DNA from: Psammoneis japonica | Lineage: Eukaryota | Assembly: GCA_008632985.1 (NCBI GenBank) | Contig: QPGO01000014.1 | Span: 248,001 to 312,000, forward strand | Direction of reading: 5' to 3' | DNA: 64,000 bases | Shown here: piece by piece, positions 1 through 64,000 of the stretch | Numbering within the stretch: position 1 is the stretch's first letter | Layout of the letters: each line of letters begins with the position of its first letter | Program-made: the position numbers and the translations under genes | The notes under the pieces: generated by a model | Databases searched by the model: none | Seen by the model: the letters and a program-made list of their open reading frames with translations, nothing else | What the model was told of the DNA's origin: nothing

Positions 1-1550
1 CGTTCCGGTCGTTGTCGAAGGACGGCGAAAAAGGCAGCTGGAACTGGAGAGTTAAAAGAGTCATCATCTGTGCTCAATTTGCATGATGGGATCTGCTTGT
101 GTTGCACATGCTCTTCTCAGACTACAAAAAATGAGTTGTCTGACCTTGTGAAAGACAGTGCAACAATGACAACCATCATTGGATTGAGGGTGAGGAACTT
201 CTGATTGATTTCCTGGGATTCATGCCCAAGAATTGCAGCTTGAGCCATCAAATGTTGAGTCTGTCTTGCAAAGTCAGCTTGCTGGGTGTGGCTTCAATGA
301 ATGCTGGGTTCAGCACAGCCTGACAAGAATCAACAATGAATGCAAAGGTCACTTTTGTTGCAACAATGGCCACATTCATGCTGGTGAGAGCACCCAGCAC
401 ACCTCATGATCTTGTCCCACTTGAGGAAAATTTGTTTTTGTGACAGGTGCAGCACGATTGAACACAAGTCTGTTTTGGCAGGATTGGGGGGGGCAAAGGT
501 CCCCTCTCACTTGGCGGGGAGGAGGAGACTCAACCCGTGGTGCAATGGGTGCAAGAAGACAGCTCTGCCTGCCCAGGGCAACCAGCATGCCAACCATCTA
601 AGAAGCACTTCCACAGTCATCTGCAGTGGCCAACATGGTGAGACCATGCAGACCCCATGAACATGCAATGCGTGGTGCCGCAGCAGTGTGAACACACACA
701 GTGGAAGCACATGGTGTCCCCTGGTGGCTTGACAACTCCAATGCTCAGAAGAGACCAAGCAAGCACCATGCACACAGCACGCACATGTTGAGATTGGCTG
801 TCAATGCATGTGCATCATGGTGACCAATGAGCGACCTGTGATGACAGCACGTTCACAGGCATGTGGCGCGCAACACACAAATGGGTGTCAGAGAAACTTT
901 GATGTGGTTGATTCAATGCAATCCAAAATGCAAACCAATGAGGCAACTCACATGATTTCTGTTGGATTGATTCCATTTTCTCATGGTGACAAACTGGTCT
1001 CACATTTTCCTGCACAATCTTGACTTTTGATGCTCCGCTGTTCTCGTCACCTGACAGCAGCATGCAAGGCACGTTGAGAATCTGCTTGCAGTGCACTGCA
1101 GCAACAATGTGGAAGGAGAAGCAAGAAGCTGACAGCTCTGCTGTGACAGCTTCTGAGGTGGGTGCAGCACTTGTGTCACATGCTGCAAAAAGGGGGCAAG
1201 TCGGGAGGGGGGGGGGCTCGTTTTAAGATTGCCACCCCCCTGCCGGGGCTGAGACTGAACTTGGACAGCAGCTTTTCAGCAGGTGTGACCAGAGGGGGAA
1301 CACAGACTGAAGCCTTGCTTTGAATGAGTCCTGTTGGGGTTGGATCTTGGCTTCAACAGCAGCAGCACCTCGGCAGCTGCCAGAGAGGAGAGAGCAAGTT
1401 GGAAGCTGAGGCAACAAAAGAACAACGTGCTGGTCATTGTCAGCATCCATCATCCAGTCACGCACAATGTGCGTTTCTTCTTTTACACTGGAACACATGG
1501 GAGCCATTGTGTGAACAATGGTGTTCTCTCCCGTCGCCCCTCCCACTTTC
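1..1550. mobile_element. Degenerate TpA-depleted repeat/transposon relic (family not identified; continues beyond window start)
   Basis: Almost no TA dinucleotides up to ~1550 and only short Tyr-free, Cys/His-rich ORFs. Same composition as the identifiable TE relics later in the window. Confidence 0.55.
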
Positions 1551-21379: not shown

Positions 21380-22870
21380 ATCGTTAAATAAAGGGGTACA
21401 TAAAATCCAATACAAAATGTCTGACCGGTATAACAGGTACGTTTATGCTAGTCGTAGCCTCATATGGTGTATTGGAAGGGGCGGTGCGTGGGTCTGAAAT
21501 GTGTGGCGGAAGGGTCGCGCGAAGCGCGATAGGGGATGGGGAGAAAAAGGGTGGACCGAGAGTGCGGACAGACGGTTGACAGGAGGAGTTGGTAAATGAC
21601 AGTGGGGTGGCGGAGGAGAAAAGCTTGATGCGTAGAAAGATGGGTGGAGAGAGCAAAGCCAAAGTTAAGGGTGGTCGGTTGCTGCTTTTTTTAGCTCAAA
21701 TTCGGCTGAGTGGCTCATGTTTTGCAGCATGATTTTTCCTGAATTTCACCGTGCTTCACCATGGTGAAAACAACAAGCCACAAGTCTGTGACGGAGGTGG
21801 TCCGTCTGCCAACTCTCACCCATTTTATGTTTGTGATGTGTCAAAGATTGCACACACATGAAAAGTTGGTAGATGGCAAACTGCGTTTTTGAGAAATGTC
21901 AATGATTGTCATCATCGTCGTGCTTCGATCGTGGTGCTGATGGCTCTCGTTTTCGTGCGCGATCGGGTGTGACTGTGTGAACAATTCTTGCATTCAAAAA
22001 TGAGCACTGTGAAAAACCTCGCTCAAATGCAACAGCAATTTCAGGATGAACGTGGGGATGACCCCCCTCAAGACTGAGGATTTGGGAGGCCCAAAGCGAG
22101 GGTGTTGAAGTGTGGTGTGAAGAGCCAAAGCTGTCTTGAGAGAGTTGTTTCCAGGCCACGTTGGAGTTGGCAAGGAGATCGGAGGGTTCGAGGAGTGAGT
22201 TGGTGCAGGTGGAAAAGGATGGCTGAGAGTTGGAAAAGGAGGCAGGACTTGTCCAGGGTGGTTTGGGAGGAAGGGGTGGCATGGACGAAGAGGAAGTTTT
22301 GGCAGAGGTGCCAAAGAAAAAGGTGCGGAGGTGGCAGTCGATGCCACCAAGGTGGTCGAGGATGAAAGGGAGAAGGAAAAGACCGGCTTGGTTGACAGCT
22401 TCAATGATGTCGGATCTGTGAGCAGATGATGCAGAGCAGCCGAGGAGCTTGTCCCGTGTGCTGCTGAGGTGAGCCTTGTTAAGTGGGTTTTCAGGGGCAG
22501 GCAAACCAGGTGCAGGAAGCGGGGCAGCTGGCGGCACAGTGGCATCTGTGGCCAAAAATTGGTGGGTGGATGGGGCATTGGGTGGTGCAGAGCCAGGGGT
22601 GAGTTGGGCGCCTGCGTCAGCGGGGCGTTTGAGGGGGTGGTCAGATGGGAGGCCGGCAGGGTCAAGGTGTGGTGCTTGTTGTCGAGAAGAGCACAGGCCG
22701 CAGAGGGGGGCCAAAGTTTTGATTGTGGTGCAGACGGTGTCTCAGATGTGGTTCGAGAGATGGCTTTTGTGCATTTTAGAGCAGGCAAAGGCATGGTCTC
22801 CACAAGGGTCAGGGCGGGTGTGGCCGCATGGGCAGTTGTGTTGGAGCAGGTTGAAGATGTTGCAGGGAGG
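21380..22870 (-). mobile_element. 5'-truncated non-LTR retrotransposon 3' end with restriction-like endonuclease domain (degenerate), split by an insertion
   Basis: Minus strand reads CPCGHTRPDPCGDHAFAC (CCHC knuckle), NHI*DT, RPAD, LATDATV, LPFILDHLGG and WASQILSL, which continues LNFGFALSTH beyond the 21669-22067 insert. Confidence 0.7.
21669..22067. mobile_element. 399-bp non-autonomous DNA transposon, TTAA target duplication, GG...CC termini (Kolobok-like)
   Basis: aaag-TTAA|gggtggtc...gacccccc|TCAA-gact. Removal restores the reading frame ILSLNFGFAL of the host retroelement. Confidence 0.65.
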
Positions 22871-23689
22871 CGCAGCTTGCGTAAGAGAAGGAGTGGTGGC
22901 GGGGTCATTCGGGCATTTGCGCGCGACTTACATTGGACTGGCATGCAAACGGACAAGTGCGCATGGTGTTGAATTCAATTTTTTGTTAAAAAAAAATCAT
23001 CACATCATCACAACTGTCATTTTTCTCACAACAAAAATTGAAAATGACTGAAAAATTGCCACATTGCACAATGCGGCAGCGGAACAACCCACGAACAATG
23101 TTGGACGCTGTTGTTGGCAGCTTTGTGTGTCGCTCTGTCATGCGTCATGTGTTTCAGTCTCTTGACATGAGATGGGACAAACAGCATGGAAAATCAACAC
23201 CCCAACATGCACCCGCCCTGTGATCCGCCGTGTGGCTTGCCAGTCAGTGTGGGCAAGCATTGCTGCCTCCGCATTTGCCAATGTTTTCTCACCCTCCAGC
23301 GGGGATGCCCATCACTTCAGTTCCTGTCACTGAGCATTCTTTTGAGCCACCAGTGCCACACCCAACTTGGAACCCCCACCTCAATTGGTTTTGGAGAAAG
23401 ATTGGATCTGCTTTTTTTCAAGGTCGGAACATTTTGAAGCAATCACCATTCTGTCAATCTATTCTCATTCATCCTGATGTAAACGAGGGCTGGTTGCATT
23501 CTCTTTTGCGTCAACTTCTCAATGATGGGCTGTTCAAGGTCACCTCAGATTGTGGCAAGTGTGAGACACATGATCCGTTGACTCTTTGTGCCTGTGCTGA
23601 TCAGTGCAACTGCAAAAAGACTGACCGTGTTTTGAAAACTTCAGCAGACAAACTGCCAGAAATGTGCTGTTCTCCATCCTTTCAATGCA

Positions 23690-25990
23690 CACCTCCCCCA
23701 TTGTCAGTGGGGGCGCCACCGTCACATCCTCCCTTGCCCCAAAATCATCCCATGCATTCAGATCCAGATTGTGGCCCAGTTCTTGAGGCACCAACAAATG
23801 CCTCTGACTCACCTCCTTTGGTGCCAACAAAACATTTGCATTGTTTCTATTTCTTGGGTGATTTGAGGATGTTCAAACAGTCTGTCTTGTGTGAAAAGCT
23901 CTTTGGTCAAGGCATGTGTGATGCCAAGATAGAAGAGATCTGCCAAAGTCCATGCAAGAACCAGATTTTCAATGTGAATCAGAAAGGACTCTGCAGAATT
24001 GGTCAGGAGTCATTGCTTCGTAAGCTTGCAGAATTTGTGGCTCAACTGGAAGAGTTGCCAAAGAAGCAGGCACTGCAGTCAGTTTTCGAAACCGCTTCAG
24101 AACGAAGCGCGCACAAAGCAGCTCATGAAAGGGCACAACGAAAGTCTTGCACGGAACAAACACAGTGCAATGTTGCGAATGACAAACCATCATTGAGTGC
24201 CATGGACACCTCTGGGAAGTCTTCTTGTTTTGACAGCGCACAGGAGAATCTAGAGTGACTGTTGCAAAATGAGTCTCAAGAAAAGGACGACAGAGCAGAA
24301 TCTAGAAAGCAGATTCTAGAAAGCAAGGTGAAAAGTGCATGTTGTCCACAAGGTCTCCCGGGAGCAAAATGGAGCAAGAAGCCGGAGGCAAATCCTCATC
24401 AGGAATCCTCGAATGATCTCGATGTCAGCAAGAATTCTCCTCCATTGTTTTGATGCATGCCTCCTGCATTGTCAGCGGGGGTGCCACCGTTGTGTCCTCC
24501 CTTGCACCAAAATCATCCCATGCACTCAGATCTGGATCGTGGCCCAGTTTTTGAGGCACCAACAAATCTGTCTCACTCATCTCCGTTGGTGCCAACAAAG
24601 TTTCAGAATTGTTTCCACTTCTTGGGCAATTTGAAGACATCCAAACATTCTGTCTTGCATGAAAAGCCTTTTGATCAAGGCATGTGTGATGCTGAGATAG
24701 AAGAGATCTGCCAAAGTCTGTGCAAGAACCAGGTTTTCAATGTGAATCAGAAAGAACTCTGCAGAATTGGTGAGGAAATGTTGCTTCGCAAGCTTGCAGA
24801 ATTTGCAGCTCAACTGGAAGAATTGCCAACGAAGCGGGCATTGCAGTCAGTTTTTGAAACCACTTCAGAATGAAACGTGAACAGCAAAGCAGCTCGTGAA
24901 AGGATGCAACAAAAGTCTCGCATGGAACAAATGCAGTGCAATGTCGTGAACGACAAACCATCATTGAGTGCCATGGACACCTCTGGGAAGTCTTCTGGTT
25001 TTGTCAGTGCACAGAATCTAGAAAAACTGTTGCAAAATGAGTCTTGAGAAAAGGACGACAGAGTGGAATCTAGAAAGCGGAATCTAGAAAGCGAGGCAAA
25101 AAGCACGTGTTGTCATGAACGTCTCCCGGGAGCAAAACAGAGCAAGAAGCCTGAGGCCAATCCTTGTCAGGAATCCTCAAATGATCTCAATGTTGGCAAG
25201 AACTCTCCTCCATTGTTTTGACACATGCCTCTTGCATTGTCAGCAGGGGTGCCACCGTTGTGTCCTCCCTTGCACCAAAATTATCCCACACATTCAGATC
25301 CGGATCGTGGCCCAGTTTTTGAGGTGCCAACAAATCCGTCTGACTTGTCTCCGTTGGTGCCAACAAAGTTTCAGAATTGTTTCTACTTCTTGGGCAATTT
25401 GAGGATGTCCAAACATTCTGTCTTGTGTGAAAAGCCTTTTGATCAAGGCATGTGCAATGCCGAGACAGAAGAGATCTGCCAAAAAGTCTGTGCAAGAACC
25501 AGGTTTTCAACATGAATGAGAAAGGACTGTGCAGAATTGGTGAGGAAATGTTGCTTCACAAGCTTGCAGAATTTGCAGCTCAGCTGGAAAAATTGCCAAC
25601 GAAGTGGGCATTGCAGTCAGTTTTTGAAACCACTTCAGAACAAAATGCAAACAGCAAAGCAGCTTGTGAAAGGACACAATGAAAGTCTCCCACAGAACAA
25701 ATGCAGAGCAATGTCGCTGCCGACAAACCATCATTGAGTGCCGTGGACACATCTGGCAAGTCTTCTGGTTTTGTCAGCACCCACGAAAATCTAGAAAAGC
25801 TTTTGCAAAACAAGTCTCAAGAAAAGGACGCTGGAGCGGACAGAAAGTGGAATCTTGAAAGTGAGGCAAGAAGCAAATGTTGCAATGAAGCTCTTCTGAG
25901 AGTGAGACAGAGCAAGAAGTCTGAGGGGTGATTTCTTGTCAGGAATCCTTGAATGATCTCGATGTCAACAAGATTTCTCCTCCTTGGGTG
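23690..25990 (+). repeat. Three tandem ~768-bp (256-codon) units in a degenerate coding region of an unidentified element
   Basis: ttgtcag...gccaccgt...cctcccttgc recurs at 23701, 24469 and 25237 (spacing 768). More diverged partial modules lie at ~26150-26800. Confidence 0.9.
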
Positions 25991-28028
25991 GGGCATGCAC
26001 CTTGCTCTCCAACTGCAGGCACATTGCATCAGCATCTCATTTGCAACCATTTGCAACCCTTTGCAACCCTTTGCTTTCATCACCAATGAAGTCCACACCC
26101 GCAGTCCTCAATGCTCCAACAAAGTCCCCTCACCAAGTTTCCTCAGCTTCAACAAGGTCCTTGGACCCAAAAGCTGTGTGCTTCTCGAGACATTTGTGGA
26201 CATCCAGCAAATGTTTGTTGATCAGAAAATTTAAACATCAAGGCATCGGTGCAACGGAGACTAAGAAGATGTGCCAGACACTGCACGAACACAATTTTTT
26301 CAAGGTCAATGATGAAGGCCTTTGCAGGATTGTCCAAGATTCTGTTCAAGAAATGTGCGACCAAATTGAAAGATTTGCCAATGAAGTGGGTGTTGCACTC
26401 ATGTGTGAAACCGTTGCAGGCTTGACTGACTTTTTGCAGTTCTCAGGACATTGTTGTGTGTCGAAAGGGTGCATGTTGCATCAAAAATGCATCAGCCAAG
26501 GGATCCGGGAGAACGAGATCAGAAAGATGTGCTGAACGCTCTGCAAGAACAAGCTTTTTGTGGCCAATGCCAAAGGCCTTTGCATGATCACCCGAAGGCC
26601 ACAGAACAAACTCAAGAAACTTGTGACTCAGTTGAAAGAATTGCCAACAAAGCGGGTTCTACAATTGCTTTTCGAAACCTCTTCAGAATGAAAGGACTTG
26701 AATGTGGCTTGTGAAAGGCCCGGGCAGTCATTCAAAGAGCATGAGAACAATGTCAAGCGGCCAAGTTTTCTGAACAAATGCAGAGCCCTTGTTGGAGAAC
26801 AGCAGATGATGGTTGCATCAGAGCAAACACACTCCCGGAAAAGGATGTGCCAAGCTCTAGTCTGCAGCAGATGATGAGAACTGATCAAAAGATGACAGTG
26901 TGGGATCTCCAAATCGAGGGCATCAGCAGCAAAGATTGTCAGAAGTCTCTGCACGAAGCAGAAATGCGCCAAACACACGACAACGCGGCGACAAGGGGAT
27001 CGACCAGTCGGCATCACAAGGGGGGCACGATTGCAATGATTTGCAAAACCACAACCTGCAGAGACTGATGAACATTGCCAAGAAGCTGAGTGCAGAGACA
27101 GACTGGGGGGCAGCTGACGAGCTGGAAACCGCTGGTGAAAGCTGCGGCTGTCCAACGGCGCATTTGCAGCATGCAGTGCATGTGGTGGACGGTGCCTTCA
27201 GCCTGCTGGCAGAGTGAAAATGATGACTTGCCGTGTCGACCCTGGTTTGTCAGGCTGGGCCTTCTCGTCATCAACCCAGCTTGCTGGGCTCTGTGTGAGG
27301 GAGGCAGGTGCCTGGCATGGTGCATTTGCAATCACTTCTGCTCTAGAGAGAAAGTGCAGGGTGCAGCACCAGCGCTGCACATCACACGAAAGATGATGAC
27401 AACAACTGAGCCTCGCGCCTCTGTCTTTTCGAAACTTTGCGCAGCACAGTCTTCTGAGGCAAGGCACAAAGATGACCGACTTTTCCTCCCTTGAAACAAT
27501 TTGTTCGAAGGACATGCCGGCACACCATGTTCACGCACACGACACGAAGAGCATGCACACCGCACCGACCGGCATTGGACAGGGCCCTCCACTCCATCCA
27601 AGGATAGAGGGCCCCACTGCTGCCGGTAGAGAGCAGTACAGTAGCTAGCCACTAAGTAGCACCTTAGCGAGTACACACTGTACTGACGACGACTCTGACC
27701 CGTCGTACTCGTGGCGGAGGGGTGTAATTCGGGGTGTAATTTTGGGGTGTAAAAACGCGCGACGCGCGTTTTTACACCTCCAAAAGAAAATTACAGCAAA
27801 CAAATAGGCCTCCAGAGGCTTGTACTATTTTTTTCCTGTAATTTTCGTGCGAGAGCAGACCGCATTGGCGGCAGAAAACGCAAAACACCTTGCGCCGCGA
27901 TCCGTTTGTCATTTAGTATCCATCTAAAGACAACACGAAACGACTTGTAAGACAACGATAGACTACGTTGTCTGTAGATACAACGCTTCTGTAGATACAA
28001 CGCTTGACTACAACGTCTATTAAGCATC

Positions 28029-29435: not shown

Positions 29436-29443
29436 CTAGACAT

Positions 29444-29806: not shown

Positions 29807-31180
29807 TCATTGCCTACCTGCCGCAGGGCTATCTTGTAGCGACAGCTTCTTCACTTCATGGGCAATCTCTGTACGTCGTTTCTTGATTACGCGAAGCATC
29901 GCTGCCTTGCTGTCAGGGCTAATGTCCTCCGACATCGCTGCTCGATCGCGACGTTCGCCTTGTTTTTCAAAAGAGTCAAACAATGAATCAACCTTCGTCG
30001 ATTCAGCTTCCTTCTCCTTTCGGGCAAGAATGTCAGAAGCCTTTTGTGTCAAACCGCCGACGCGCTCCTGTTGACTCTCGAGCTTTGCCAGGTTCTGTTG
30101 GTGCTGGTCTTTCACCGTCACTTTCTTGGGAGGTGTGGAATCATCTTGGGCTCCCTCAAAACCGGATTCATTCTTCACCCAGTCTTTCACTTGTCCACCA
30201 CTGCCACTGGCCAGCAGAAATCCTTCTTTCCGGTCAAGCAAGCAAACCCAGAGCAACCACCTGTTGCCGCCGCAATGGTCTGGGAAATCTTCGATCCTCT
30301 TGGGGCCATTGCCAGTCTCTTTGCCCCATTTGCGTGAGGCTTTTTTGCATTTTGGCCTCAAGTGTGAGAGCCAAACTTCTTTCATGAAATCAGACTCGTG
30401 TTTCTTGGTGATGATTGCGACGGCATTGGGATCGGTCATCAGTCGCATCTTCCGGCACATCCTTGACAATGCACCTAATTCCCTCCGGACGAGAGACAAC
30501 AAACTCGGCATTTTCAAAGTCCTCCTCTTGAATCTGTGCGAAGAATGCATCCGTCGGATCGTTGGACAGGTTTTGTTTGGCACGGCCCTTTTTGCCAGTC
30601 ATTGTTCCCTGCACACTGCCACGGCACTTTTGTTGAAGCATGGCGGCGGCCGCACGAATCGCATCTTCGGGAGTGCGATTTTCCTGGTGCTTGCTCGTGG
30701 TGGAGTGCCAACAATTCTCAAGGTTCGAAATCACCATTGGGATCCCACCGTGCTCGTCGTCGTTCTGGAGCATGAAGACCTTGTCATTCTTTCCACACTT
30801 CTGAAGGCTTGGGTGCACCTCCGTGCAGTCTACATGTTTCCAGTGCGAACCAAAACCTTGGCAATGGCATCCTTGCTTCTTGTTTGGTTTGTTGGAAGGT
30901 TGGGAAACCTGTTGGCCCTCCATTGCTTGTAAAGGGCAGTCGAAAACTCACCCATTACAGGGCACTTTAAAGTTTTTGCTTTGCTCTTTGCATCTTGAAC
31001 GCCTTCATCTTGAAGACTTGTCATCAGTGAGTGCAAAGCAGGGTGCAGCTTCTTGTCTTCAGCTGCCTGGTGTGGCTCGGCCATGGCTGGAGCACTTTGA
31101 GTTGAACGGAAGCGTTGCAACAGTCTTACAACAGATAACTCTCCACCTTAGCGTAATGTCCCCGTCAGGTGTATGTTGCA
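29807..31180 (-). pseudogene. Harbinger accessory (putative DNA-binding) ORF, frameshifted and TpA-depleted
   Basis: Overlapping minus ORFs 30830-31120, 30390-30923 and 29807-30583. Trp-rich segment VWLSHLRPKCKKASRKWGKETG...CGGNRWLLWVCLLD. No Tyr. Confidence 0.6.
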
Positions 31181-37079: not shown

Positions 37080-37939
37080 CTTGTCAAGAACGAAGATTGA
37101 GGAACATTCTTTGAAGGCAGCCTACTCTAGCTCAAACGAACAACATGATTATCTTCAATACCCAAGGAGTCGAGATCGTAGTCAAATATGTAACACCATA
37201 GCGCCAGACGAGATCGAAGGCGGTTAGCGCTATATCTATGATTTGGTGAATACCTATACAGCATGCTAATGACGGCACACAAATTGTGAATAGCTGCAGC
37301 GCGGCCATAAAAATGTATCGTTTTGCACCGCTGGCAGGCACTCCAGCCGCATTCGTCTCTGCAGAGACATTGTGTTCCTGAGATCACCAGCAGCTTTTTT
37401 TTCTTCCCAACCTGTGTGAGTTGGGTCAAAACTGCCTGAGGTTTTGTGCTTTCTCCTGTCAAAGCACGCGCCATTTCCTCTCTCTCTCTCTCGAACGAAC
37501 TCTCTCTGCTTTTTCCAGAGGCCTCAGAACAATGACTCAACTTGGCCCCAAAAGCAAAGCAAAAAAAAAAGTTCAATCGGGGGGGGGGGGGGGGGGCAAG
37601 AACTCAATCAATCAATCAACTCAACGATTGCCAGTTAATGCTGGCACCCTCTACGGACTTTTGGCCGGCTGGTTACAGGACTCTGCAGAGAAATGCTCCA
37701 GACTGGCATCTAAAGAAGCCTGTTTGAACAAGGCACACTTGATGTGCAATCAAGGAGCATCTCCGTCAGTTGACCTGCCTGAGCAGGGCCCCAGTGCAGG
37801 ATGCTGCACGGCTGAAATGGAGCCATTGGTTTTTCAGATTTGATGGAACAGGTCCCCGGCACAGCTGATGACTTTTAAACAAACCAAACTTGAAATCTGC
37901 AGCATGAGGTCCAAGTCAAAGGTGCAACAGTTGGGCATG

Positions 37940-40900
37940 CTCGTCTCATCCTCCTGTTGTTGTGCACAACAAAGTGGGCAAGGGTGAGTTGTCGTCATCA
38001 CTTTTTTTCCATGGGTTCATTGATTCAAGGCAGTGCTGCAACCCATTTGCACAGCACAGCCCTTTCCGCTTGTGGTTGCATGTCGACTCCCAGAGTCCTT
38101 GATTGACGTTTGTGGGTGGCAGCGACATTGGCAAGCTGCGACCATTTGAAGGTGTGGTCCCCAGACAGGAGTGTGACAAGTGTCCCTGAAAATGGCAGGC
38201 AAATTCCTGAGACAGTTGTTCTCTGCTGCAGTGAAAGTGATGACTTGCATGAGCATCCAGTTCTTGCACAGCTTGTTTGCTCAGTTGCAGGTGGGCAGCA
38301 TTGTTGCGGTGCTTCCAGAGGCATTGTGGCATTTCCACAAGTTGCTTGATCCATCTCTGCACCCAGTTTGCAACAGTTTTCCTGGATGCTCAAAGGCGGA
38401 AGTGTTTGTTCTGTGCAGTTGCCCATTCTTTGGTCATGCACCCTTCCAGGAGTCTGTCCCAGCCAATGACATGTTGCGCTGCAGTGGCCCTGTGCAAGGT
38501 TGGCCTGGTGAAGGGATTGGCAGTGGCTGGGAGATGTCTGTCATTGCACCATGCCTGAAGGTGATCTTGTGTGGCTTCAGCAAGTCCAACAGCAGTGTCG
38601 TTCTTGTCAATCCACTTGATGTGTTTTTGCAGGAGTTTGTTCCACTTGGCCATGGCCTCCAGGCAAACTGCTGTGTGGTTGGTGTTTTCATTCTCCTTGC
38701 AACATCTTGGACATCTGGAATGGTCCTGTGTCTTCCATTGCTGAAGCCATTTGCCAACACCGCAGATTCCAGTGGTGTGCTTGGCTGGCCATTGCCTGCA
38801 TCCTGTGCTGAGTTGGTTGGCTGCATTGTCTGTGGCACCCCAGTGTTGATGCAATGAAAGCTCTCTGGCATGAAGAGGTGTTTCTGATGGACCAAGCATT
38901 GCATCAGCTTGGTTCTGCAGATGTGATTGAACAGTTGTTTGGGCAATTTTGTGGAGAGCTTGCATCCCCCCATGCAAACCAGCCACATTTTGCCTTTGAC
39001 ATTGCACTGGCTGGCATGGTGATGCTCTGTTCCTTGTTGTGTGTTGCCACTTGGCTTTTGCAAGATTGTCCATCTCAATGTTGAGTCTGGTCCATCCACC
39101 CAGCTTGCATCTGGGTCACGAGTCTTGGTGTCCTTTGAACCACCAAAACTTCCACTTGACAGGGCTTTTTGTGAGCTTGTTTTTTGCTGCGCTTGGTGCA
39201 TCAAACTTGTTTGATCTTGGCATGACTCTCCTGCAAGGGCAAGAGGTCTTAAGGAGTGCTTGTTTGCCATTGCACGCTGTTTCTGCCATGCCGTCCTGGA
39301 TGCCTTGGTGTGCACAGATGTCTTTGACGGTGCAGATGATGGTGCGCAGGCCAGCAATTTCTGCTCAGCAAGATTCAACATTGCCTGGGTGCCCCGGGAT
39401 CACATTCGTTCCTGTGACATGATTGTTGTCCAAAGGTCCTCGCACAGTGAATGCAGATGTTCCGAGTGTGTCTTTTGCCAAGCCATTGCTTGCTGCAATG
39501 GCAGCTCTGTTGCATGTGGCATTGGCAATGCAGGCTGGGCTGTTGTCCAGGGCGATGCTGGAGTTGCACCATTGCTTTTCTGGTGGGTGTTGGAGTGTCT
39601 CCTTTCCTGGAGTGTGGCAGGTGTGGCAGCCTCATGAGTTGTTGGCAGGCATGGGGAGGAGCCCGTGTGGCAGATCCTCCATGTGTTGTTTCCTCTGTTG
39701 CAAATCCCAGTGCATTGCATGTCCTGGGGCGGGCGTGTTGCTTCTGCAGGGACAAATCACCTGTGATCTCCACAAGTGCATCTCCCACTTGCTGGGTGGT
39801 GTGAGCTGCCTCCAGCAGTCAGTCACCAGATGTTGACAGATGTGGTCTTCCATTGGCAAGCAGAGCCAGACCCATGACTGTTCTGTCACTTCCTTGTTGG
39901 ATGCTCTCATGCATGTGGCATGGAGAGCCATCCTCCACAGGCTCTAATTGGAGGAGGAGGGTGTGCCTTGGATGGGCCAGCGACATGGTGATTGAAAGGA
40001 GGGGTCAGATTTTTCACCCCAGGCTGACTCTAGAATGCTCTTCCCACCTCCTGATGTGATGTCCGCTGGGGTGGTGGCCCACAGGCAAGAGCAGCACCTG
40101 TTGAGTGCGGCCAGTTTTGCACCATGGAGCCCTTCATTGGCAAACCTTTCCATCAGGAAGGAGTTGGTTGCTTGTCTTTTCCGGAGTTGTGCAGTGTCTT
40201 CCTGGATGATGATGTTGTGCTGGGACATGAATTTCCACAGATGCTCAATCCAGGATGGAGTGGCTAGAATGCCGCACTTTGAGCATGGTGCATCAAGAAA
40301 CCTTCCGCTGACTCCAATTTCAAGCCTGTGTTTCTCAAGCAGCACTCTTGTCAGCTCTCCAGTGATCAAGTCTTGTTTCCTGTGCTTCACAAATGCTTTG
40401 ATGTGTTTCTTGAACATGGTGAACTTGATCGATTCAAATCTGAGACCTTGAAACTGTTTTGGGCCATGCAGGACTGCTCTCAGAAAGGAGCAGCGCAGGC
40501 CAGCTCTTGGCAGGCCTTGCCAAAGAATCGGAGCTTCGATGTGCTTGCATTCTTTGGAGGTCAGGGTGAGAGCTAGAAGGGGGCAATCTGGGGCTTTCCA
40601 GATTCACTGTGTGTCAGGGACAACCAGGCATCTGATTTCGAGAGGTGTCCAGAGAAGACCCGATCTGCCCAACTTTCTGCTTGCTTCTGGAGAGTCTCCA
40701 CCACTTTGTTGCAGTTCCTGTCAGGAGCTGGCCACACTCTGAGAGTGCTTTTGGCTTCGCTTGGGTCCAGCCAGGGTGTCATTTTCTTGTTTCTTTGTTG
40801 ATCCTGGATGCACATGTGTGGGTTGGTTTCATCGGCTGGATCGACAGTCTCTTCTGCACAGCCCCATTTCCCATTCTTCCACTCAAACTCAATCAAGTGC

Positions 40901-43900
40901 CACCAGCATTTGTCTGGTTGGAAATCACCTCAAGCGACTCTCGTGCCACCTGCAAAGCAATCCAGACCTTGCTGGGGCCTTCTTTCTTGGGAATGAGCAG
41001 GTCCACACCTTCTTGTCTCCATCTCTTTGGGGCCTGTTCCAGCTCCAGGTGCTCCGAGCGGGTTCGATTCCCATCATTTGGTAATTAACTTTTTCCAAAT
41101 CCGTTTTTTGCCAAATCGAAGGGCAAGTGTGCACTTTACATGCATTTTCGGGTGTACACTCACCTTTCGATTTTCGAAACGATCAAAATTGAAGGAGTTA
41201 ATTGCGCTAAACTGCGCAGAAAATCGGCCTCTCGCGTGATGAAAAGCAGATCACCTGGAGCTGGAACAGGCCTTGGAGCACAGCCCACGATGCAGAGGAA
41301 GTTGGCCATCGAGGTGTTCATTTGTGCAAGCAGTGGATCATCATTGCATGACGCTTGGAAGGGGGTGGGACAGAGGGCTGATGGACCTGCACAAATTTTC
41401 TCCTTGGCATGCTTCCATGAAGCTGTGTGTTCATCCGCAATGCAGGGAGGAGGTGGAGGGGTGCAGTTGTCTGGGTTTTGGAGTTGCAACACGTGTTCTT
41501 TGATGCACCCATTGGCACCATCTGGAACTTGGCAATTGCCCTCCAGAATGGCATTGGTGTGTTGTCTGATGCCCAGGAATTGAAGGTTGTTGATCACAGG
41601 TTTGGTCATGAGGTGGGTCTCTTTGGTCTGATGCAGTCTGTTCTTGCACTCCAGAAGGGGGGGGGGGGGGCACACTCGATTTCTTCTTTTTCCATGACTT
41701 CTCTGTCATCTTCCCCTTTGTGTTTCTCCAACAGCTGTGTGAGTGCTGCCCTGGTTGGCTTGCCTGATGCTCTGTTGACCCTGTGGTTCTGGTCCCATTG
41801 CTCTTCTTTCTGCTGCAGGACTCTCAGTTGTCTTTCTTCTGTGGAGTTGTTGGCCTTGGCCAATTGCTCTGCTTGTTTCTCTGAGAATGTCTTCCTGTGC
41901 TTGCTTGCTTCTTGGGTGACTTTGTGGCGCTCTTTGCACCTGAACGTGAGCCCTTGTTTCAGTTGTTTGAGGGTGAGGTTGTGAGCTTTGAAAAGTCCTT
42001 GCATTTCTTTTCCAGTTTTCTGATTTTGCCAAAGCTGGTCTTGAGTTTTTTCCTGCACTGTGTCAGGGCCAGGTGCAGCTCCATCTGATTGGACACCCAC
42101 TTCAGCTTTGGTGGCCAGGGCACTCTGCCTCATCTAAGTTTCCTGCATTTTCTGTTGGCCAGCCAGCAGAACCCTTCAGTCCTGAGATCATTGGTGCATT
42201 CCCATTCATCTGTTTGATTGGGCAGTGGGAGACAGGCCTCATTCTTGGCATGTGTTTCAGGTGTGCCTGTTGCTGGATGACTCCTTTGTCCACCAGATTG
42301 GATTTGGTGGAGACAATGAATTGGGAGTGATCAGGCATCAGCCTTGCTGAGGCTTTCAAGGGTTGGCACTCTTGTTGGACTTGGCAAACATCTTCTGCAG
42401 AAGGGGTCCCCAGCTGCATCTGCGTCTTTGGAGTCAATGTTGATGTGGTGCGCTTTTGGCTGGGGATGTCCATCCAGCATGGCATCGGCTGGTTTCATGA
42501 CTTTTTTTGCCCTCAGTTCAACCGGCTTGCCAAGAAGTTCTCTGATCCTGTTCTCCATCTTACTCAAGTCAATCTGATTTGACATCATCACAAGTCACCT
42601 GCAGCACTTGGCATGTTTGGCTCCTTGCGGGGTCTCAGGATTCATGTGTCCATCAAACAAGTCCTTGAGAGTGAACTTGACAGTGTCCACCAGTTTGTTT
42701 GTGTCCATGTTGGTGCTGAGCCAGATGTCAAGCCAGCCATCCTTCTCAACATTTGGCTTGAGTTGGCAAAGGTGTGTCTTCATCCAGGCGAACGGCATCT
42801 TTTGGAGCTGATTCTTGAAGGCACCATCCTTCTGAGTGATGGGTTTGTTCTTGACACCACCAGTCTACATTGCCGCCACTGTGCTGCTGTCACCTGTGAG
42901 TTCACACATTCTGTCAATCATGGACCCAAATTTCCTGCCCAGTGTGACCTCTGCATTTTCTGCCTTGTTCTTCTTTTGCAGTTTTTGCCTGCTTGAGGGT
43001 GAATCTGATGAAGCAATTCCATTGGATCTTCTCTTTGGTTCCTTTCTTGTTTGTGTTGAAGATCGGGGCTGTCTTGGTGTTTTTCTTGCTTGTTGCATCA
43101 TCCTTTTGTTTTTGTGTTTCTGCTGTCATTGTTTCAGCTTTCTCCTTTGCCTTGGTTGAGTTTGCTTTGGTGTTCTTCTCATTTTCTTTGGGTGGCAGTG
43201 CTTCTTTTCTGTTCTTTTGTTTGTCTTTCTTGCTTGATTTTTTGTCATTGTTCTTGAGTGTGCTCTTGGTGTCACCTGGTTTTGTTCCAAGAGCGACACA
43301 TGGTGGGGTCATCTGGCACAGTTCAGCGGCCTTTGGCTTTGTTGTCTTGTGTCCATCTTCAGGTTGTTTCTTCTCTGGTTCTTGTTGCTTGATTTCCTTG
43401 TTGTTCTCTTTGGGATTGTTGTTTCTGGTGTGGTTGTTGAGCATGTCCTTTGGTTCCATGGCATCAATTTCCATGTCTTTGGTGGGATTGGGGTCACTGG
43501 CATCTTCATCTTGATCAGATTCCAAGTCGCCATCTTTCTTCATGTCCACCTTGTGAGGCTCCTTCTCTGGTGCTGCCACTTTGACTGCTTTGCATGAGTC
43601 CATGTCCTCAGGTTCATCTGAAGATTTGGGCCCCAGATCAGGGTCACTCTCATCTGGAAGGAAAGGAACTGGGTCCTTCTTTGGCAGTGGCTTCACTCCA
43701 AGAACTTTGCATGAGTTGTGTTGCTGGCATCATTGTCATCTGCCTGGCTGCTCTCCTGCTCTGAGTGGCAAAGGAGCTCATCATCATTGCCCACTTTGAC
43801 TTCACTGATGGAGTCACTGGAGCTCAATGATTTGTCAGAGGAGGAGTCCAAGGATGATGAACTGGAAGAGGATGAAGAGGAAGAGGAAGCAGAGCTGGAA

Positions 43901-44350
43901 GCAGAGACCATGAAGGAGTTGTCTTGGCTGATTTTTCCCTTCCTTTCTTCTGCTTGCTGCTCTTCTTTTTCTTCAGGGTTTTGTCTGCAACCTTGTTGCC
44001 TGTGCTGTCAAGGTTGTTGAGGACAAGCTTGTCAATGGGTGCTTCATCGGTGGTGTGCCAACTTTCACACACCTGGGTGTCTTTGTCTTTTTCATCATTG
44101 TTGAGAGATTTGAAGTGGCTCAACTTGGTCATTCCTTTGGGGGGTGATTGCATGAAGCTGTCATCGTCTGAGTCCACCTCCTGTGTGACAGCAAGTGTTT
44201 TTGCTTGATGGTGTTTTTTAGGGTCTTGAATCCATCACAGTCTTTGTTTTTTGTGATTGCATCTTTGGCTCCGCTGTCTTTGGTGGAGGAATCAAAGAAC
44301 TTGATGATGAGAGGTTGTTTCATTTTCATTGTTTTTGCTTGCTTTTCTGG
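37940..44350 (-). mobile_element. Degenerate Ambal-like LINE (ORF1 ~44330-42330; ORF2 with partial RT, RNase H, zinc knuckle)
   Basis: Fragments GCAP/KRWRQEGVDLLIPKKEG, IEFEWKNGKW, LRVWPAPDRN, WFKGHQD, CPRCCKENENTNHTAVC, IGWDRLLEG and LWKHRN. Many stops and frameshifts. Confidence 0.8.
41031..41272. mobile_element. 242-bp MITE with perfect 21-bp TIRs inserted in the LINE RT
   Basis: ggcctgttccagctccaggtg (41031-41051) and cacctggagctggaacaggcc (41252-41272), flanked by ttgg on both sides. Removal restores A-P-K-R-W. Confidence 0.9.
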
Positions 44351-45849
44351 GGAGAGTTCATTTCATCTTTGCTGGCTGATTTCTTGCAAGGAGAAAGAGT
44401 GCCCTTGTGTTTGGTGCAACCGCTGGGGGTCATCATCATGGTGCTGAGACAAGGAAGGACATTCCTGGGCAAGAATCAGTGCTGGATCTGCGTGAAGAGG
44501 TTGGCAACTTTGTGCACTGATGCACACTGGAAAAGCGGGGGTGGTGAGAACTCAGAAGAGACACCGTTTTGCACATTGCCAAGCTCAGCTCCTTGGGCAT
44601 CTCCCAGCATCCAGCAGCCTTTGCATCAAATGCAGGATGCAAAGACAATGTCAGCTGGGTGCACAACAAGTGCAAAAGTGCCTCAAAAGGCACTTCCCCT
44701 CAGAAGATGTTCAAATGTTGGAGCTGACAAGACTGACAGAAAGACTTCTGGTTTTGAATCTTGTCCATGTCCTCATGGTTTGATCATTGAGAACCAGGTG
44801 CTGTGCCACTCCCATCAACTCCTGCACACTGACACCTTTGCATGGCACACCTCCCCATCCAAGAGCAACCTCTGCCATTCTTGAGTCCATCTTGCACCCC
44901 AGCTCTGTTGCCCACCCGCTTGCCCACAGAAACACCATCATGTCTGCCCAAGGCACATCCAATGGTCACACCAGTGGCAAATCCAACAAGAAGCATGCAA
45001 ACAACTCCACCCCAAATGGCAGCATCTGCCCCACTGCCAAGGTTGTCACCAAGAAGTGTCGACGTTCCCACAGAGGAACACATGTGAAAGCAACCAGCAC
45101 GACTTTTGCAGTGTGGTTTGTGCGCTGTGGAAAGAGGGATCTCCTCATCCTGGCAAAGCTGTCAATGGCAGAAGCTTTCTTTCTTGTGCAAGCAGGAGTT
45201 GTGGCTTGTGCAGGAGAAACCTCTTTTAGCTGAGGCAAGTTGCACTGTGGTCACTCCTGTTGTCATGGTGTGAGCCCATGCAAGCAACAAAGAGTGCTTG
45301 GCTGAGTTGCCTGGCATGAGAGCTTGCAGTGCAATGTTCAGGCCTGTGCTCACAAGCACACTTTGTGAGAAATGACAAAGCTCCAATTGTGGGTGTCAGA
45401 TCACAATGTGACAGAATGCAAGCTTGCGCAAAAACAGGCTTTGAAGATGCTTTTTTCCTTGACATGTGTGCTGCACTGACATCAAACTCAGACCTGCCCT
45501 GCAAGTTTAGACCTGGGAGTTGAACTCAGAGGTTGAGCAAAGGAAAAGACAGTCTCTGTGGGGTGGGTCCTGAAGATGGCAGTGGGGAAGAGTGCTGTGG
45601 GTGAGTCTGGGGTTTGCAACAGAGAATTTTTTGCCCTTGCTGGCGGCATGTTGAAGTGTGCTGTGAAGGTCCATTGTGCTGCTTGCCTTGCAGCAGGCAG
45701 GGCTGCAGCTGTGCACCATGCTCCACCCCCAATTTTGGTGCCTGTGTGTGCATTGCAGAACAATCTCTGCCTGTCAGTCTGTCAGCACCAACCCCAATCT
45801 CAGAAGACCTTGGTGGGTCAACAAAGGCCACCATCACCCACTTCCAAAA

Positions 45850-46100
45850 TTGCAAATCTGCTCATCTTTTTCAACAAACATGTCATTGATGAAAGGCTGC
45901 AAGGTCTCCACATGCTGTGCATCCTCAAGGGTGGAAGCATCAAAGAACCCAAAGAATGCTCAGGCACCCAGGTCAGAAAGCGCCAGCTTTTCAGCTCCGA
46001 TGGAAAGATGCAAAGCATGCCATGTCCTGTGATTTGCACATTGAGAGGGCCATTGTGGATGTTTGTTTTGAGCTCTTGTTGTCTTCCAGCAAGGCTTGTC
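45850..46100 (+). mobile_element. Probable Copia RT fragment
   Basis: LKGGSIKEPKECSGTQVRK and AMSCDLHIERAI resemble Copia LKxxSIKEPxxYLG / MSSxxYVxxAI with Tyr replaced by Cys/His. Confidence 0.45.
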
Positions 46101-46720
46101 AAGAAAACCCCTTGATGCCAACAAGCTCAGGATGGCAAAACTCAGCTGCGCTGACATTGTGGCACCAGCTTTGACTCTGTCATCCCACATTTGAGAAATT
46201 TTCATCCTTCACAGAAAGGAAATTGATTTGCAACTCAAACTCCCCACCAGTGTTGGGCACCTTTGCTGTGCAAATGGGTCCAGACTTTGTTGCTTCTCCT
46301 CAGCGCAGGTTGCAAAAGTGGCGCTTGGCCGCTTGCTCTTGCTCGCTCCTCTTGCACTTGCTCAAGAGACTGCCCACCTTTGTTCTTGATTTGTTGGACC
46401 AGGAATTTGCCACACACAGTCACATGTGTGGTTGCACAGAACTTGCACTTCCAGCCATGCAGTCACAAGCTTGTTTCAACATTGCATGAAAGAACAGTCA
46501 GCAGCACACCCACACATGGACGCTGCTGCGCTCTTGCGTCTGTTGTTGCGTGCGGTGCGGTCATCATAGTTCAACTAGTGCGGCATGACGGTCCATCCGT
46601 CTGACGGATGTTAGGTGTGGTTTGCTCTGGGTCGTGTGTGGTGTGTGGGGCAATATTTTTTAGAAAAAAGACCCGTACATAAAGGGCTTGTTCTACCGGT
46701 ATGCTGTATGTATGTACTGA

Positions 46721-63774: not shown

Positions 63775-64000
63775 TCAACAGCAGTGTCCCATCATGCGTC
63801 GAGCGTGGCGAGCGTGTGGCACCCAGCCAAGAGCCTTGGCAAGGTCATCGCTGGGGTTGACAATGCCAGGGACATGTCTTGTGACAATCTTGCCCACTTC
63901 CTTCCATTCTTGGATCGCAAAAAACTGGATCTCAATGTGACAGGAGCGCTCGGTCGGAATCGAGTGATTGATGATCTTGATTGCCGATTCGTTGTCAACA
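63775..64000 (-). mobile_element. 3' end of a second Copia pol (RNase H C-terminus); continues beyond window
   Basis: VDNESAIKIINHSIPTERSCHIEIQFFAIQEW...HVPGIVNPSDDLAKALGWVPHARHARRMMGH. Confidence 0.85.

What the first reader, a model, noticed from the sequence alone, without database searches (positions are those of the whole stretch)
23690..25990. 768-bp tandem triplicate records TA->CA and CG->TG/CA changes site by site
Homologous sites in the three copies: gcttcgTAagctt (24015) / gcttcgCAagctt / gcttcaCAagctt; gccaagaTAgaa / gctgagaTAgaa / gccgagaCAgaa; ttcTAttt / ttcCActt / ttcTActt; aatCAtccc / aatCAtccc / aatTAtccc. Different copies retain different TA sites. Each unit therefore mutated independently after an in-situ duplication, which implies a DNA-level process rather than RNA editing during retrotransposition.
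Basis: seen in the sequence. Interest (0 to 1): 0.8.

Follow-up and report, generated by a model that had tools for sequence, protein, structure and literature searches.

The report
TA- and CG-erasing mutation in algal DNA
Three tandem copies of a dead gene segment in a diatom-like alga have each lost their CG and TA dinucleotides independently, and they lie in one of several sharply bounded blocks where both dinucleotides are almost erased, a pattern so far reported only in one 2026 preprint on an unrelated alga.

Summary
The 768-bp tandem triplicate is real (23672-25985; copies 80-87% identical) and all four quoted site sets are there. Differences concentrate at pyrimidine-purine steps (odds ratio 6.5). 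Of 57 variable such steps, 25 still hold CG in some copy, 5 hold TA, and 27 are CA in one copy and TG in another, so their ancestor was CG or TA. Changes to CA (66) and to TG (65) are balanced, which means DNA-level decay on both strands after duplication in place. Putting CG back gives an open 257-codon frame.

The TA-to-CA claim rests on only 5 sites inside the triplicate. The stronger evidence is wider. Five sharply bounded blocks (26 kb of 64 kb) have TA at 0.04 and CG at 0.27 of expectation. Neighbouring genes and their non-coding spacers are normal. Surviving TAs are mostly YTAR, so the target is RTA (TAY on the other strand).

Best reading: methyl-CpG decay plus TpA-targeted hypermutation in silenced, single-copy DNA of a diatom-like alga. 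The closest known case is TpA hypermutation in Bigelowiella natans (2026 preprint). The enzyme is unknown, and so is what the blocks once were. This is a new member of that kind.

The parts
23672..24439 (+). Tandem unit 1 (768 nt = 256 codons). 1 stop in the ORF frame, against 7 and 12 in the other frames.
24440..25207 (+). Tandem unit 2 (768 nt). 3 stops in the ORF frame. One is the TGA at 24451, where unit 1 has CAA.
   Evidence: sequence
25208..25985 (+). Tandem unit 3 (778 nt, with small indels). 7 stops in the ORF frame.
23224..24258 (+). 344-codon open frame running from unique upstream sequence through unit 1. It is a relic of the coding frame shared by all three units. No Pfam family and no detectable relatives.
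26618..26718 (+). Older, 70%-identical fourth copy of the unit's central 101 nt. The dead gene already had internal repeats before the triplication.
   Evidence: family D4; ORF translations
21800..27600 (.). TA/CG-depleted block that holds the triplicate (27 TA, TA o/e 0.07; CG o/e 0.48). The unique flanks 21800-23671 and 25986-27600 are as depleted as the copies (TA o/e 0.08 and 0.05). The right edge is abrupt at about 27605.
1..1400 (.). Depleted block at the window's start (TA o/e 0.05, CG o/e 0.26). It ends at about 1480.
30000..30800 (.). Block with TA gone (1 TA, o/e 0.02) but CG nearly normal (41 CG, o/e 0.77). By TA positions it spans about 29925-31120.
37800..46600 (.). Depleted block (20 TA, o/e 0.04; CG o/e 0.20). 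By TA positions it spans about 37320-46560, and its right edge is abrupt.
54600..64000 (.). Depleted block running to the window's end (18 TA, o/e 0.03; CG o/e 0.17).

Best explanation
The triplicate is an in-frame tandem triplication of a 256-codon unit of a gene of unknown family, in a diatom-like (stramenopile) alga. The gene lies in one of several discrete, sharply bounded chromosomal blocks that undergo two dinucleotide-specific transition processes on the DNA, on both strands.

(1) CpG -> TpG/CpA. This shows no flank preference and is most simply deamination of 5-methylcytosine in silenced DNA.

(2) TpA -> CpA/TpG. This removes TA even more completely than CG is removed. It is fast when the T follows a purine (RTA -> RCA, which reads TAY -> TGY on the other strand) and slow at YTAR.

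After the triplication each copy decayed independently and without coding constraint, so homologous sites now read CG, TA, CA or TG in different copies.

Shown here: the duplication in place, the direction and context of the CpG changes, the strand symmetry, the block structure and the flank rule. Inferred: that the blocks are methylated or silenced chromatin, and that process (2) is the same kind of targeted TpA hypermutation measured in Bigelowiella natans mutation-accumulation lines. Its chemistry is open. Adenine deamination by an ADAT/TadA-like enzyme is the published guess, which I put at about 0.3.
For: Triplicate: variable transitions fall in YR steps at 98 columns against 31 outside, while invariant columns split 190 against 388 (OR 6.5). 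There are 25 CG-retaining, 5 TA-retaining and 27 CA/TG-mixed variable sites. Inferred events to CA and to TG number 66 and 65. The 84 polarised changes outside these sites are spread 27/29/28 over codon positions, which is neutral. The ancestor with CG restored has 0/6/11 stops per frame, against 1/6/13 for the plain majority consensus.

Blocks: 70 TA occur in 26.2 kb where normal-block density predicts about 974, and 430 CG where about 1460 are predicted. Per kb, with strands pooled, TA falls by 34.5 and CG by 39.3 while CA rises by 33.0 and TG by 33.0. Edges are abrupt, within about 50-300 bp.

This is not the genome's neutral drift. The 10.4 kb of non-ORF DNA inside the normal blocks keeps TA o/e 0.69 and CG o/e 0.98.

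Flank rule: 48 of 70 surviving TAs are YTAR, against 223 of 1405 in normal blocks (p=3e-21), and RTAY accounts for 1 of 70 against 424 of 1405. On the product side, RCAR/YTGY gains 24.4 per kb and YCAY/RTGR gains 8.2. The rule predicts 30.9 and 11.6. Without the rule the prediction is 21.3 and 21.3. The ratio holds in 4 of 5 blocks.

In the triplicate, CA/TG mixes have R_Y flanks in 10 of 27 cases, against 3 of 25 for CG-retaining sites (p=0.055).

Recent activity: among the 22 low-copy differences that I classified between the window and contigs of run X1, 8 are CpG-type and 7 are TpA-type, and 6 of those 7 obey the rule.

Depth of 69-100 over the triplicate, against about 60-65 for single-copy DNA, shows the target is not a dispersed repeat.

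Precedent: bioRxiv 10.64898/2026.01.13.699255 (Results and Discussion read) reports TpA-only A->G/T->C hypermutation in two single-copy integrated viral regions, and 124 TpA-poor, CpA+TpG-rich clusters.
Against: Within the triplicate only 5 sites show TA directly. Two of them (flank Y_Y with product CA) break the flank rule, and one is as well explained by a C->T gain. The 27 CA/TG mixes cannot be assigned to CG or TA one by one, and the R_Y enrichment is only p=0.055. TA loss before the triplication is therefore not excluded for most sites.

The mass balance assumes the blocks began with the composition of today's gene blocks. No methylation, chromatin or mutation-rate data exist for this organism. 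What the blocks once were is unknown: 0 of 112 ORFs of at least 100 aa reach a Pfam cut-off.

An intact Harbinger element with normal TA and CG sits between two depleted blocks. So the process is either not continuous across a domain, or the insertion is very young.

Run X1 comes from the same sample as the assembly and its library type is not on record, so it is not fully independent. 297 further differences were not shown.

The B. natans case involves no CpG component, and its flank context was not visible to me because supplements are closed.
Confidence: 0.72

Rival explanations
1. Only CpG decay has acted since the triplication. The TA poverty is older than the duplication, or native to the sequence, so the triplicate records methyl-CpG deamination and a few ordinary transitions, not TA->CA.
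For: 43 identifiable CG events occur at 25 sites, against 7 TA events at 5 sites. One TA site is most simply a C->T gain. All 27 CA/TG mixes could formally come from CG. Restoring CG alone already gives 0 stops.
Against: A capture-recapture estimate made by hand from the counts gives about 26-50 ancestral CG sites. That predicts about 8-12 CA/TG mixes, and 27 are seen. The mixes are enriched in R_Y flanks, the one TA class that can give both products (10 of 27 against 3 of 25). Under the flank rule most TA losses give the same product in every copy, so they leave no difference between copies. Differences from X1 contigs include 7 TA-type changes among the 22 I classified. The block at 30000-30800 has lost TA but not CG.
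Confidence: 0.15
2. A RIP-like, homology-triggered defence. The tandem duplication itself was recognised, and the repeats were mutated in bursts, perhaps through the RID-related DNMT4 enzymes of diatoms.
For: Duplicated DNA is hit, the changes are transitions in a dinucleotide context, and the coding frame was destroyed. Diatoms encode DNMT4 enzymes related to fungal RID, whose function is unknown (PMC9998398, passages read).
Against: The unique flanks of the triplicate are as depleted as the copies (TA o/e 0.08 and 0.05, against 0.08 in the copies). The depleted stretches laid (22.7-27.3 kb and 37.3-40 kb) are at about single-copy depth, and the blocks do not match each other in the window apart from one 65% pair. 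A stretch with summed depth of 794 to 6772 at 20.7-22.0 kb keeps normal TA and CG up to about 21.5 kb. Two paralogous subtilase genes are untouched. The direction is the opposite of RIP: TA is lost here, not gained.
Confidence: 0.07
3. RNA-level A-to-I editing (ADAR-like) of a transcript, followed by retrotransposition of the edited copies.
For: ADAR prefers a U 5' of the edited A, as stated in the preprint's Discussion. That matches the TA context.
Against: The copies are head-to-tail and in frame at one locus. Products are strand-symmetric (66 CA against 65 TG). Unique flanks and whole multi-kb blocks are equally affected. The CpG changes are C->T, not A->G.
Confidence: 0.02
4. A sequencing or base-calling artefact at modified bases (5mC, 6mA, 5hmU), or a foreign insert that never contained TA or CG.
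For: The depletion is domain-specific, as base modification would be. The only read set found is from the same sample, and its library is not on record.
Against: X1's k-mer contigs reach 315 kb at about 60x depth and reproduce the depleted stretches with 2 differing letters per 1.4-2.1 kb. I take this to imply accurate reads whose base calls do not depend on modification, which is an inference. Copies of the same unit keep CG or TA at different homologous sites, and they also carry about 4% non-YR changes per branch, as expected of old real duplicates. A sequence with 0 TA per kb could never have encoded the open 257-codon frame without Tyr, and without many Ile, Leu and Val codons.
Confidence: 0.04

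Closest known systems
TpA-targeted hypermutation of integrated viral DNA in the chlorarachniophyte Bigelowiella natans (Mettrop et al., bioRxiv 10.64898/2026.01.13.699255; abstract, Results and Discussion read)
   Same: TpA -> TpG/CpA on either strand. The process is confined to discrete regions while the rest of the genome is ordinary. Its targets are single-copy, not repeats. The long-term signature is TpA-poor, CpA+TpG-rich clusters, many of them without annotation.
   Different: The organism here is a stramenopile (best protein hits are diatoms), not a rhizarian. Depletion is near saturation (TA o/e 0.02-0.07, against 0.45 for their NCLDV region). CpG is depleted in the same blocks, while the preprint's main text never mentions CpG (0 occurrences). 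An RTA/TAY flank preference is seen here, and the preprint's main text gives none (its tables were not visible). No viral or transposon origin could be shown here, and no mutation rate was measured.
Repeat-induced point mutation (RIP) of ascomycete fungi
   Same: A DNA-level, dinucleotide-specific burst of transitions that ruins the reading frames of unwanted DNA and leaves blocks of skewed composition.
   Different: RIP turns CpA into TpA, so TA rises; here TA is erased. RIP needs duplicated sequence. Here the unique flanks and single-copy blocks are hit, and a high-copy stretch is spared. Features of RIP are recalled, and quoted from abstracts listed.
Decay of methylated CpG in silenced transposons (vertebrates, plants; CpG methylation of diatom transposons by DNMT5a, PMC9998398 abstract)
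   Same: CpG o/e falls to 0.17-0.48 with a matching TpG/CpA excess, without flank preference and on both strands.
   Different: It cannot explain the loss of about 93% of TA. It also cannot explain the block where TA is gone but CG remains.
ADAR hyperediting or APOBEC editing of retroelements
   Same: Deamination-type transitions clustered in unwanted sequence. ADAR prefers a 5' U.
   Different: Those act on one strand of RNA or cDNA before integration. Here both strands of resident tandem DNA are affected equally.

Membership tests
TpA-targeted hypermutation (B. natans type) | Changes are A->G/T->C at TpA, giving TpG or CpA | tested here: met
   TA falls to 7% of normal-block density, with balancing CA and TG gains. 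There are 7 TA->CA events in the triplicate. 7 of the 22 differences from X1 contigs that I classified are TA-type. This is inferred from composition and copy comparison, not from observed new mutations.
TpA-targeted hypermutation (B. natans type) | Confined to discrete regions while the rest of the genome mutates normally | tested here: met
   Five blocks with edges sharp to about 50-300 bp. Adjacent genes have TA o/e 0.49 and their non-ORF spacers 0.69.
TpA-targeted hypermutation (B. natans type) | Mutation rate about 1000-fold above background, measured in mutation-accumulation lines | not testable with these tools
   There is only one assembly and one sample. From the triplicate, YR-site decay is roughly 30-fold the rate at other sites (hand estimate counts).
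TpA-targeted hypermutation (B. natans type) | Targets are of foreign (viral or transposon) origin | tested here: inconclusive
   0 of 112 ORFs of at least 100 aa in the blocks pass a Pfam cut-off. The unit's ORF has no relatives. ORF excess over shuffles is modest.
TpA-targeted hypermutation (B. natans type) | Targets are single-copy, so the process does not depend on homology | tested here: met
   Depth is 69-100 over the triplicate and 78-89 at 37.3-40 kb, against about 60-65 baseline. Unique flanks are equally depleted.
Fungal RIP | C->T at CpA, so that TpA increases | tested here: not met
   TA is lost, not gained (TA o/e 0.04 in the blocks).
Fungal RIP | Restricted to duplicated sequence | tested here: not met
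   single-copy blocks and unique flanks are depleted. The high-depth stretch at 20.7-21.5 kb and the paralogous subtilase genes are not.
Fungal RIP | Depends on a RID/DNMT4-type enzyme during the sexual phase | not testable with these tools
   No genome is held for this window.
Methyl-CpG decay | CpG deficit with TpG/CpA excess, on both strands | tested here: met
   CG o/e is 0.17-0.48 in four blocks. CG->CA 20 and CG->TG 23 in the triplicate.
Methyl-CpG decay | 5-methylcytosine present in the affected DNA | not testable with these tools
   No methylation data.
ADAR-edited retrocopies | A->G on the transcribed strand only, in dispersed retrocopies | tested here: not met
   66 changes to CA against 65 to TG, in head-to-tail in-frame copies.

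The most novel reading that the evidence does not exclude
A single chromatin- or RNA-guided defence system in a diatom-lineage alga erases both self-complementary pyrimidine-purine steps (TA first, then CG) from silenced or foreign single-copy DNA. One example would be a DNA deaminase acting on both A and C (ADAT2/TadA-like, reading T-A-Y). On this reading, TpA hypermutation is an ancient genome-immunity mechanism shared across the SAR supergroup rather than a peculiarity of Bigelowiella.
Probability: 0.2. Interest if true: 0.85.

Novelty: new member of a known kind. Interest (0 to 1): 0.66.

Why it matters
Targeted TpA hypermutation has so far been reported once, in a 2026 preprint on a rhizarian alga, and its enzyme is unknown. 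In six full-text searches I found no other report, and none for diatoms or other stramenopiles.

This window shows the same signature carried almost to completion in a second, distant lineage. It adds three handles that make the mechanism testable. First, there is a three-base target (RTA/TAY). Second, the signature shares the same blocks with CpG decay, in an apparent order of TA before CG. Third, the edges are sharp next to untouched genes, and an untouched young transposon sits between two blocks.

If the process is general, it would be a second route of genome defence by mutation, besides fungal RIP. It would also explain why such regions yield no recognisable genes.

Tried and rejected
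- No whole genome is held for this window, so no genome-wide scan or enzyme search was possible.
- The unit's 344-aa ORF gave no Pfam family, 0 hits in the word-indexed protein search, 0 hits in the full HMMER search of 1.84 billion representatives, and no usable Atlas hit.
- 0 of 112 ORFs in the depleted blocks passed a Pfam cut-off. Three sub-threshold matches (Zn_ribbon_2, HTH_32, Agro_virD5) were ignored.
- Rfam and tRNA scans of the window found nothing.
- A possible LTR pair (55046-55584 and 62685-63222, 65% identical) was aligned as a second natural experiment but is too diverged to score.
- Sequencing runs: no RNA holder is listed. The only holders are three runs of one sample, so expression could not be addressed.
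- Relatives in metagenomes: of 38 loci fetched with the phosphodiesterase profile, I examined the 17 of at least 3.5 kb. None has a 1-kb bin with TA o/e below 0.2, and the only bins below 0.3 lie in GC-rich loci with CG o/e above 1.2. These are gene-centred contigs, several of them bacterial, so this says little about whether relatives share the process.
- Earlier scan notes hold nothing on this genome or sequence. One word hit concerns phage islands and has no bearing here.
- General neutral drift of the genome was considered and rejected.
- gBGC was considered and rejected. It would favour TA->CA/TG but oppose CG->CA/TG.
- UV TA-photoproducts (recalled) were considered and rejected, because nothing would confine them to blocks.
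Full report
**1. The observation**

A three-copy direct repeat lies at 23672-24439, 24440-25207 and 25208-25985, with spacing of 768 and 768-770. TRF missed it only because its period limit is 500. A MAFFT alignment gives identities of 650/765, 611/765 and 666/765.

**2. Where the copies differ**

- Of 762 ungapped columns, 183 vary: 141 by transitions only and 42 with a transversion.
- Of the 141 transition columns, 98 sit in a pyrimidine-purine (YR) step, 12 are mixed and 31 are not. Among invariant columns the split is 190 against 388 (odds ratio 6.5, p=3e-19).
- Of 144 YR column pairs, 84 are uniformly CA or TG, 2 are uniformly CG and 1 is uniformly TA.
- The 57 variable pairs comprise 25 that keep CG in at least one copy, 5 that keep TA, and 27 where one copy reads CA and another TG.

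A CA/TG pair differs at two adjacent bases. Each member is one transition away from CG, and also one from TA. These sites are therefore the footprint of an ancestral CG or TA that was resolved independently in each copy.

Inferred events are as follows:

| Class | Events |
|---|---|
| (CG or TA) -> CA | 39 |
| (CG or TA) -> TG | 42 |
| CG -> CA | 20 |
| CG -> TG | 23 |
| TA -> CA | 7 |
| TA -> TG | 0 |
| Other transitions | 43 |
| Transversions | 41 |
| Unresolved | 3 |

The totals are 66 changes to CA and 65 to TG, so both strands are hit equally.

**3.

768 nt is 256 codons, and all units share the frame of the open frame 23224-24258. Stops in that frame and in the two other frames are:

| Sequence | ORF frame | +1 | +2 |
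|---|---|---|---|
| u1 | 1 | 7 | 12 |
| u2 | 3 | 8 | 13 |
| u3 | 7 | 9 | 7 |
| Plain majority consensus | 1 | 6 | 13 |
| Ancestor, retained CG/TA restored, 27 ambiguous sites set to CG | 0 | 6 | 11 |
| Ancestor, ambiguous sites set to TA | 3 | 9 | 16 |

The unit was therefore coding when it was triplicated. Several stops are CGA -> TGA, for example at 24451, where u1 has CAA.

The 84 polarised non-YR changes fall 27/29/28 on codon positions 1, 2 and 3. The copies have evolved neutrally since the duplication.

The protein has no Pfam family and no detectable relative. An older, 70%-identical partial copy at 26618-26718 shows that the gene already had internal repeats.

**4. How much of this is TA -> CA**

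Inside the triplicate, little can be shown directly.

- There are only 5 variable TA sites. At one of them (CA/CA/TA) parsimony favours a C->T gain.
- Two of the five give CA in a flank where the window-wide rule predicts TG.
- From the CG retention counts, a capture-recapture estimate made by hand gives about 26-50 ancestral CG sites. That predicts about 8-12 CA/TG mixes, and 27 are seen.
- The mixes are enriched in purine_pyrimidine flanks (10 of 27, against 3 of 25 CG-retaining sites; p=0.055).

This is suggestive, not proof.

**5. The larger picture**

The window is a mosaic. Five blocks are depleted:

| Block | TA o/e | CG o/e | CA and TG o/e |
|---|---|---|---|
| 1-1400 | 0.05 | 0.26 | 1.88, 1.79 |
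| 21800-27600 | 0.07 | 0.48 | 1.60, 1.58 |
| 30000-30800 | 0.02 | 0.77 | 1.56, 1.18 |
| 37800-46600 | 0.04 | 0.20 | 1.97, 1.55 |
| 54600-64000 | 0.03 | 0.17 | 1.85, 1.78 |

Together they make up 26.2 kb. The rest of the window has TA o/e 0.53-0.66 and CG o/e 0.86-1.01.

- The blocks hold 70 TA where normal-block density predicts about 974, and 430 CG where about 1460 are predicted.
- With strands pooled, TA falls by 34.5 and CG by 39.3 per kb, while CA and TG each rise by 33.0.
- Edges are abrupt. No TA occurs from at least 45700 (the limit of the listing) to 46566, and after that one occurs every 10-30 bp.
- The normal blocks carry long intronless genes: subtilases, a phosphodiesterase, an NCBP1-like MIF4G protein, a GPCR and a Harbinger transposase.
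- The 10.4 kb of non-ORF DNA in the normal blocks still has TA o/e 0.69 and CG o/e 0.98. The depletion is therefore not this genome's general neutral equilibrium.
- Within block 21800-27600 the unique flanks are as depleted as the three copies (TA o/e 0.08, 0.08 and 0.05).

**6. A three-base target**

- Of the 70 surviving TAs, 48 are YTAR (CTAG 16, TTAA 15, CTAA 11, TTAG 6), against 223 of 1405 in normal blocks (p=3e-21).
- RTAY accounts for 1 of 70, against 424 of 1405.
- This fits a rule in which T->C needs a purine 5' of the T (RTA -> RCA), which reads TAY -> TGY on the other strand.
- The products agree. RCAR/YTGY gains 24.4 per kb and YCAY/RTGR gains only 8.2. The rule predicts 30.9 and 11.6. 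Without it the prediction is 21.3 and 21.3.
- The favoured-to-disfavoured ratio is 1.47-1.60 in 4 of 5 depleted blocks. It is 1.05-1.21 in the three large normal blocks and 1.66 in the small Harbinger block.
- CG survivors show no comparable context.

One consequence follows. Most TA losses give the same product in every copy, so they leave no difference between copies. This explains why the triplicate shows so few TA sites.

In the triplicate, 7 of the 13 remaining TAs are CTAG, in the short AATCTAGAA repeats.

**7. Copy number, reality and recency**

One sample's runs hold the stretch. Laid on 20000-39999, X1 contigs give a baseline depth of about 60-65, 69-100 over the triplicate, and 78-89 over 37.3-40 kb. 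The depleted blocks that were examined are therefore about single-copy. In contrast, 20.7-22.7 kb reaches a summed depth of 794 to 6772.

The contigs reproduce the depleted sequence with 2 differing letters per 1.4-2.1 kb. I classified 22 listed differences outside the high-copy stretch (297 more were not shown). Of these, 8 are CG<->TG/CA, 7 are TA<->TG/CA and 7 are other. Six of the 7 TA-type differences obey the flank rule. They may be allelic or paralogous, and they come from the same sample.

**8. Organism**

The phosphodiesterase ORF and the NCBP1-like ORF find their best named hits in diatoms (Odontella, Thalassiosira, Ditylum, Cyclotella, Minutocellus), but at no more than 50% and 44% identity. 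No identical protein is in the database. I call it a stramenopile alga, probably of the diatom lineage, and nothing closer was sought.

It is not Bigelowiella. The genes here are intronless. TA makes up 3.7% of dinucleotides in the normal blocks, against the 6.0% reported for that genome outside its viral regions.

**9. Comparison with what is known**

Six full-text searches found one relevant work, bioRxiv 10.64898/2026.01.13.699255. I read its abstract, Results and Discussion. Its supplements were not visible.

- In B. natans mutation-accumulation lines, 231 of 302 new substitutions fall in two single-copy integrated viral regions.
- Nearly all of those are A->G or T->C at TpA.
- The rate there is about 6e-7 per site per generation.
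- The genome holds 124 TpA-poor, CpA+TpG-rich clusters.
- The authors propose an ADAT2-like adenine deaminase.
- Their main text does not mention CpG, diatoms or flanking bases.

The present window shows the same kind of signature in a different supergroup lineage. Here it is carried almost to saturation, combined with CpG decay, and has a flank preference.

Fungal RIP is the functional analogue but fails on both features I could test. Its direction raises TpA, and it needs duplicated sequence. Diatoms do encode RID-related DNMT4 enzymes of unknown function (PMC9998398, passages read). Nothing here links them to the process.

**10. Mechanism**

What is shown: two context-specific transition processes act on resident DNA, on both strands, within bounded domains.

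What is inferred:
- The CpG part is 5mC deamination in silenced DNA. In Phaeodactylum, loss of DNMT5a correlates with global loss of DNA methylation and over-expression of young transposons (abstract of PMC9998398).
- The TpA part is an enzymatic attack, either on A in T-A-Y or on T in R-T-A.
- T-A-Y recalls the U33-A34-C35 context of bacterial TadA. This is recalled, not tested.
- An oxidised-thymine route (5hmU/5fU, also recalled) cannot be excluded.

The block at 30000-30800 has TA gone but CG at 0.77. Across the other blocks, TA o/e is 0.07 where CG is 0.48, and 0.03-0.04 where CG is about 0.2. This ordering suggests that TA is removed faster than CG. It could reflect two separate processes, or one enzyme with a preference.

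An intact Harbinger element of normal composition lies between two depleted blocks. Either it inserted very recently, or targeting does not simply spread over a domain.

**11. Verdict**

The independent DNA-level decay in place is right. The TA -> CA component is real at the scale of the window but thinly documented within the triplicate, where CpG decay dominates what can be identified.
- The finding is best filed as a new member of the recently described TpA-hypermutation kind, with added features.

Noticed in passing
window 27600-29800 (ORF 28008-29435 +): An apparently intact Harbinger/PIF transposase gene (DDE_Tnp_4, 475-aa ORF) with normal TA (o/e 0.66) and CG (1.01) sits between two depleted blocks. 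X1 depth of 114 at 28.0-28.7 kb suggests about two copies. It is a young insertion, or an element exempt from the hypermutation.
   Followed up: partly
window 29925-31120: A block where TA is almost gone (1 TA in 800 bp) but CG is nearly normal (o/e 0.77). It overlaps ORFs 29810-30598 (-) and 30075-30929 (+), which have no Pfam family. X1 contigs at about 3x depth differ from the window here by several TA<->TG/CA and CG<->TG/CA changes. This may be the most recently attacked stretch.
   Followed up: partly
window 20700-22700: A high-copy dispersed repeat, with summed contig depth of 794 to 6772 against about 62 baseline. Other copies lack about 405-425 bp at 21660-22080. The left part (to about 21470) is TA-rich and CG-normal, and the right part is G-rich and depleted.
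   Followed up: no
window 31418-34549 and 47621-50881: Two paralogous subtilase (Peptidase_S8) genes are 69-73% identical at the DNA level. Both have normal composition, so duplicated genes at this divergence are not attacked.
   Followed up: no
window 37800-46600: Strong strand asymmetry inside a depleted block: AT skew of -0.24 to -0.38 over 38-44 kb, and TG 1077 against CA 789. TA loss alone cannot account for this by a hand estimate, and it remains unexplained.
   Followed up: no
window 55046-55584 and 62685-63222: A direct repeat pair of about 540 bp at 65% identity, 7.6 kb apart, inside a depleted block. It could be the decayed LTRs of a retrotransposon, but no RT or integrase domain was detectable between them.
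   Followed up: partly
window 24294-24325, 25065-25093: A 14-nt tandem duplication (GGAATCTAGAAAGC-like) inside units 1 and 2 carries most of the surviving TAs, all of them as CTAG.
   Followed up: partly
window 7837-8766: An ORF with a DsrE/DsrF-like domain (E=5e-07), which I recall as an uncommon family in eukaryotic nuclear genomes.
   Followed up: no
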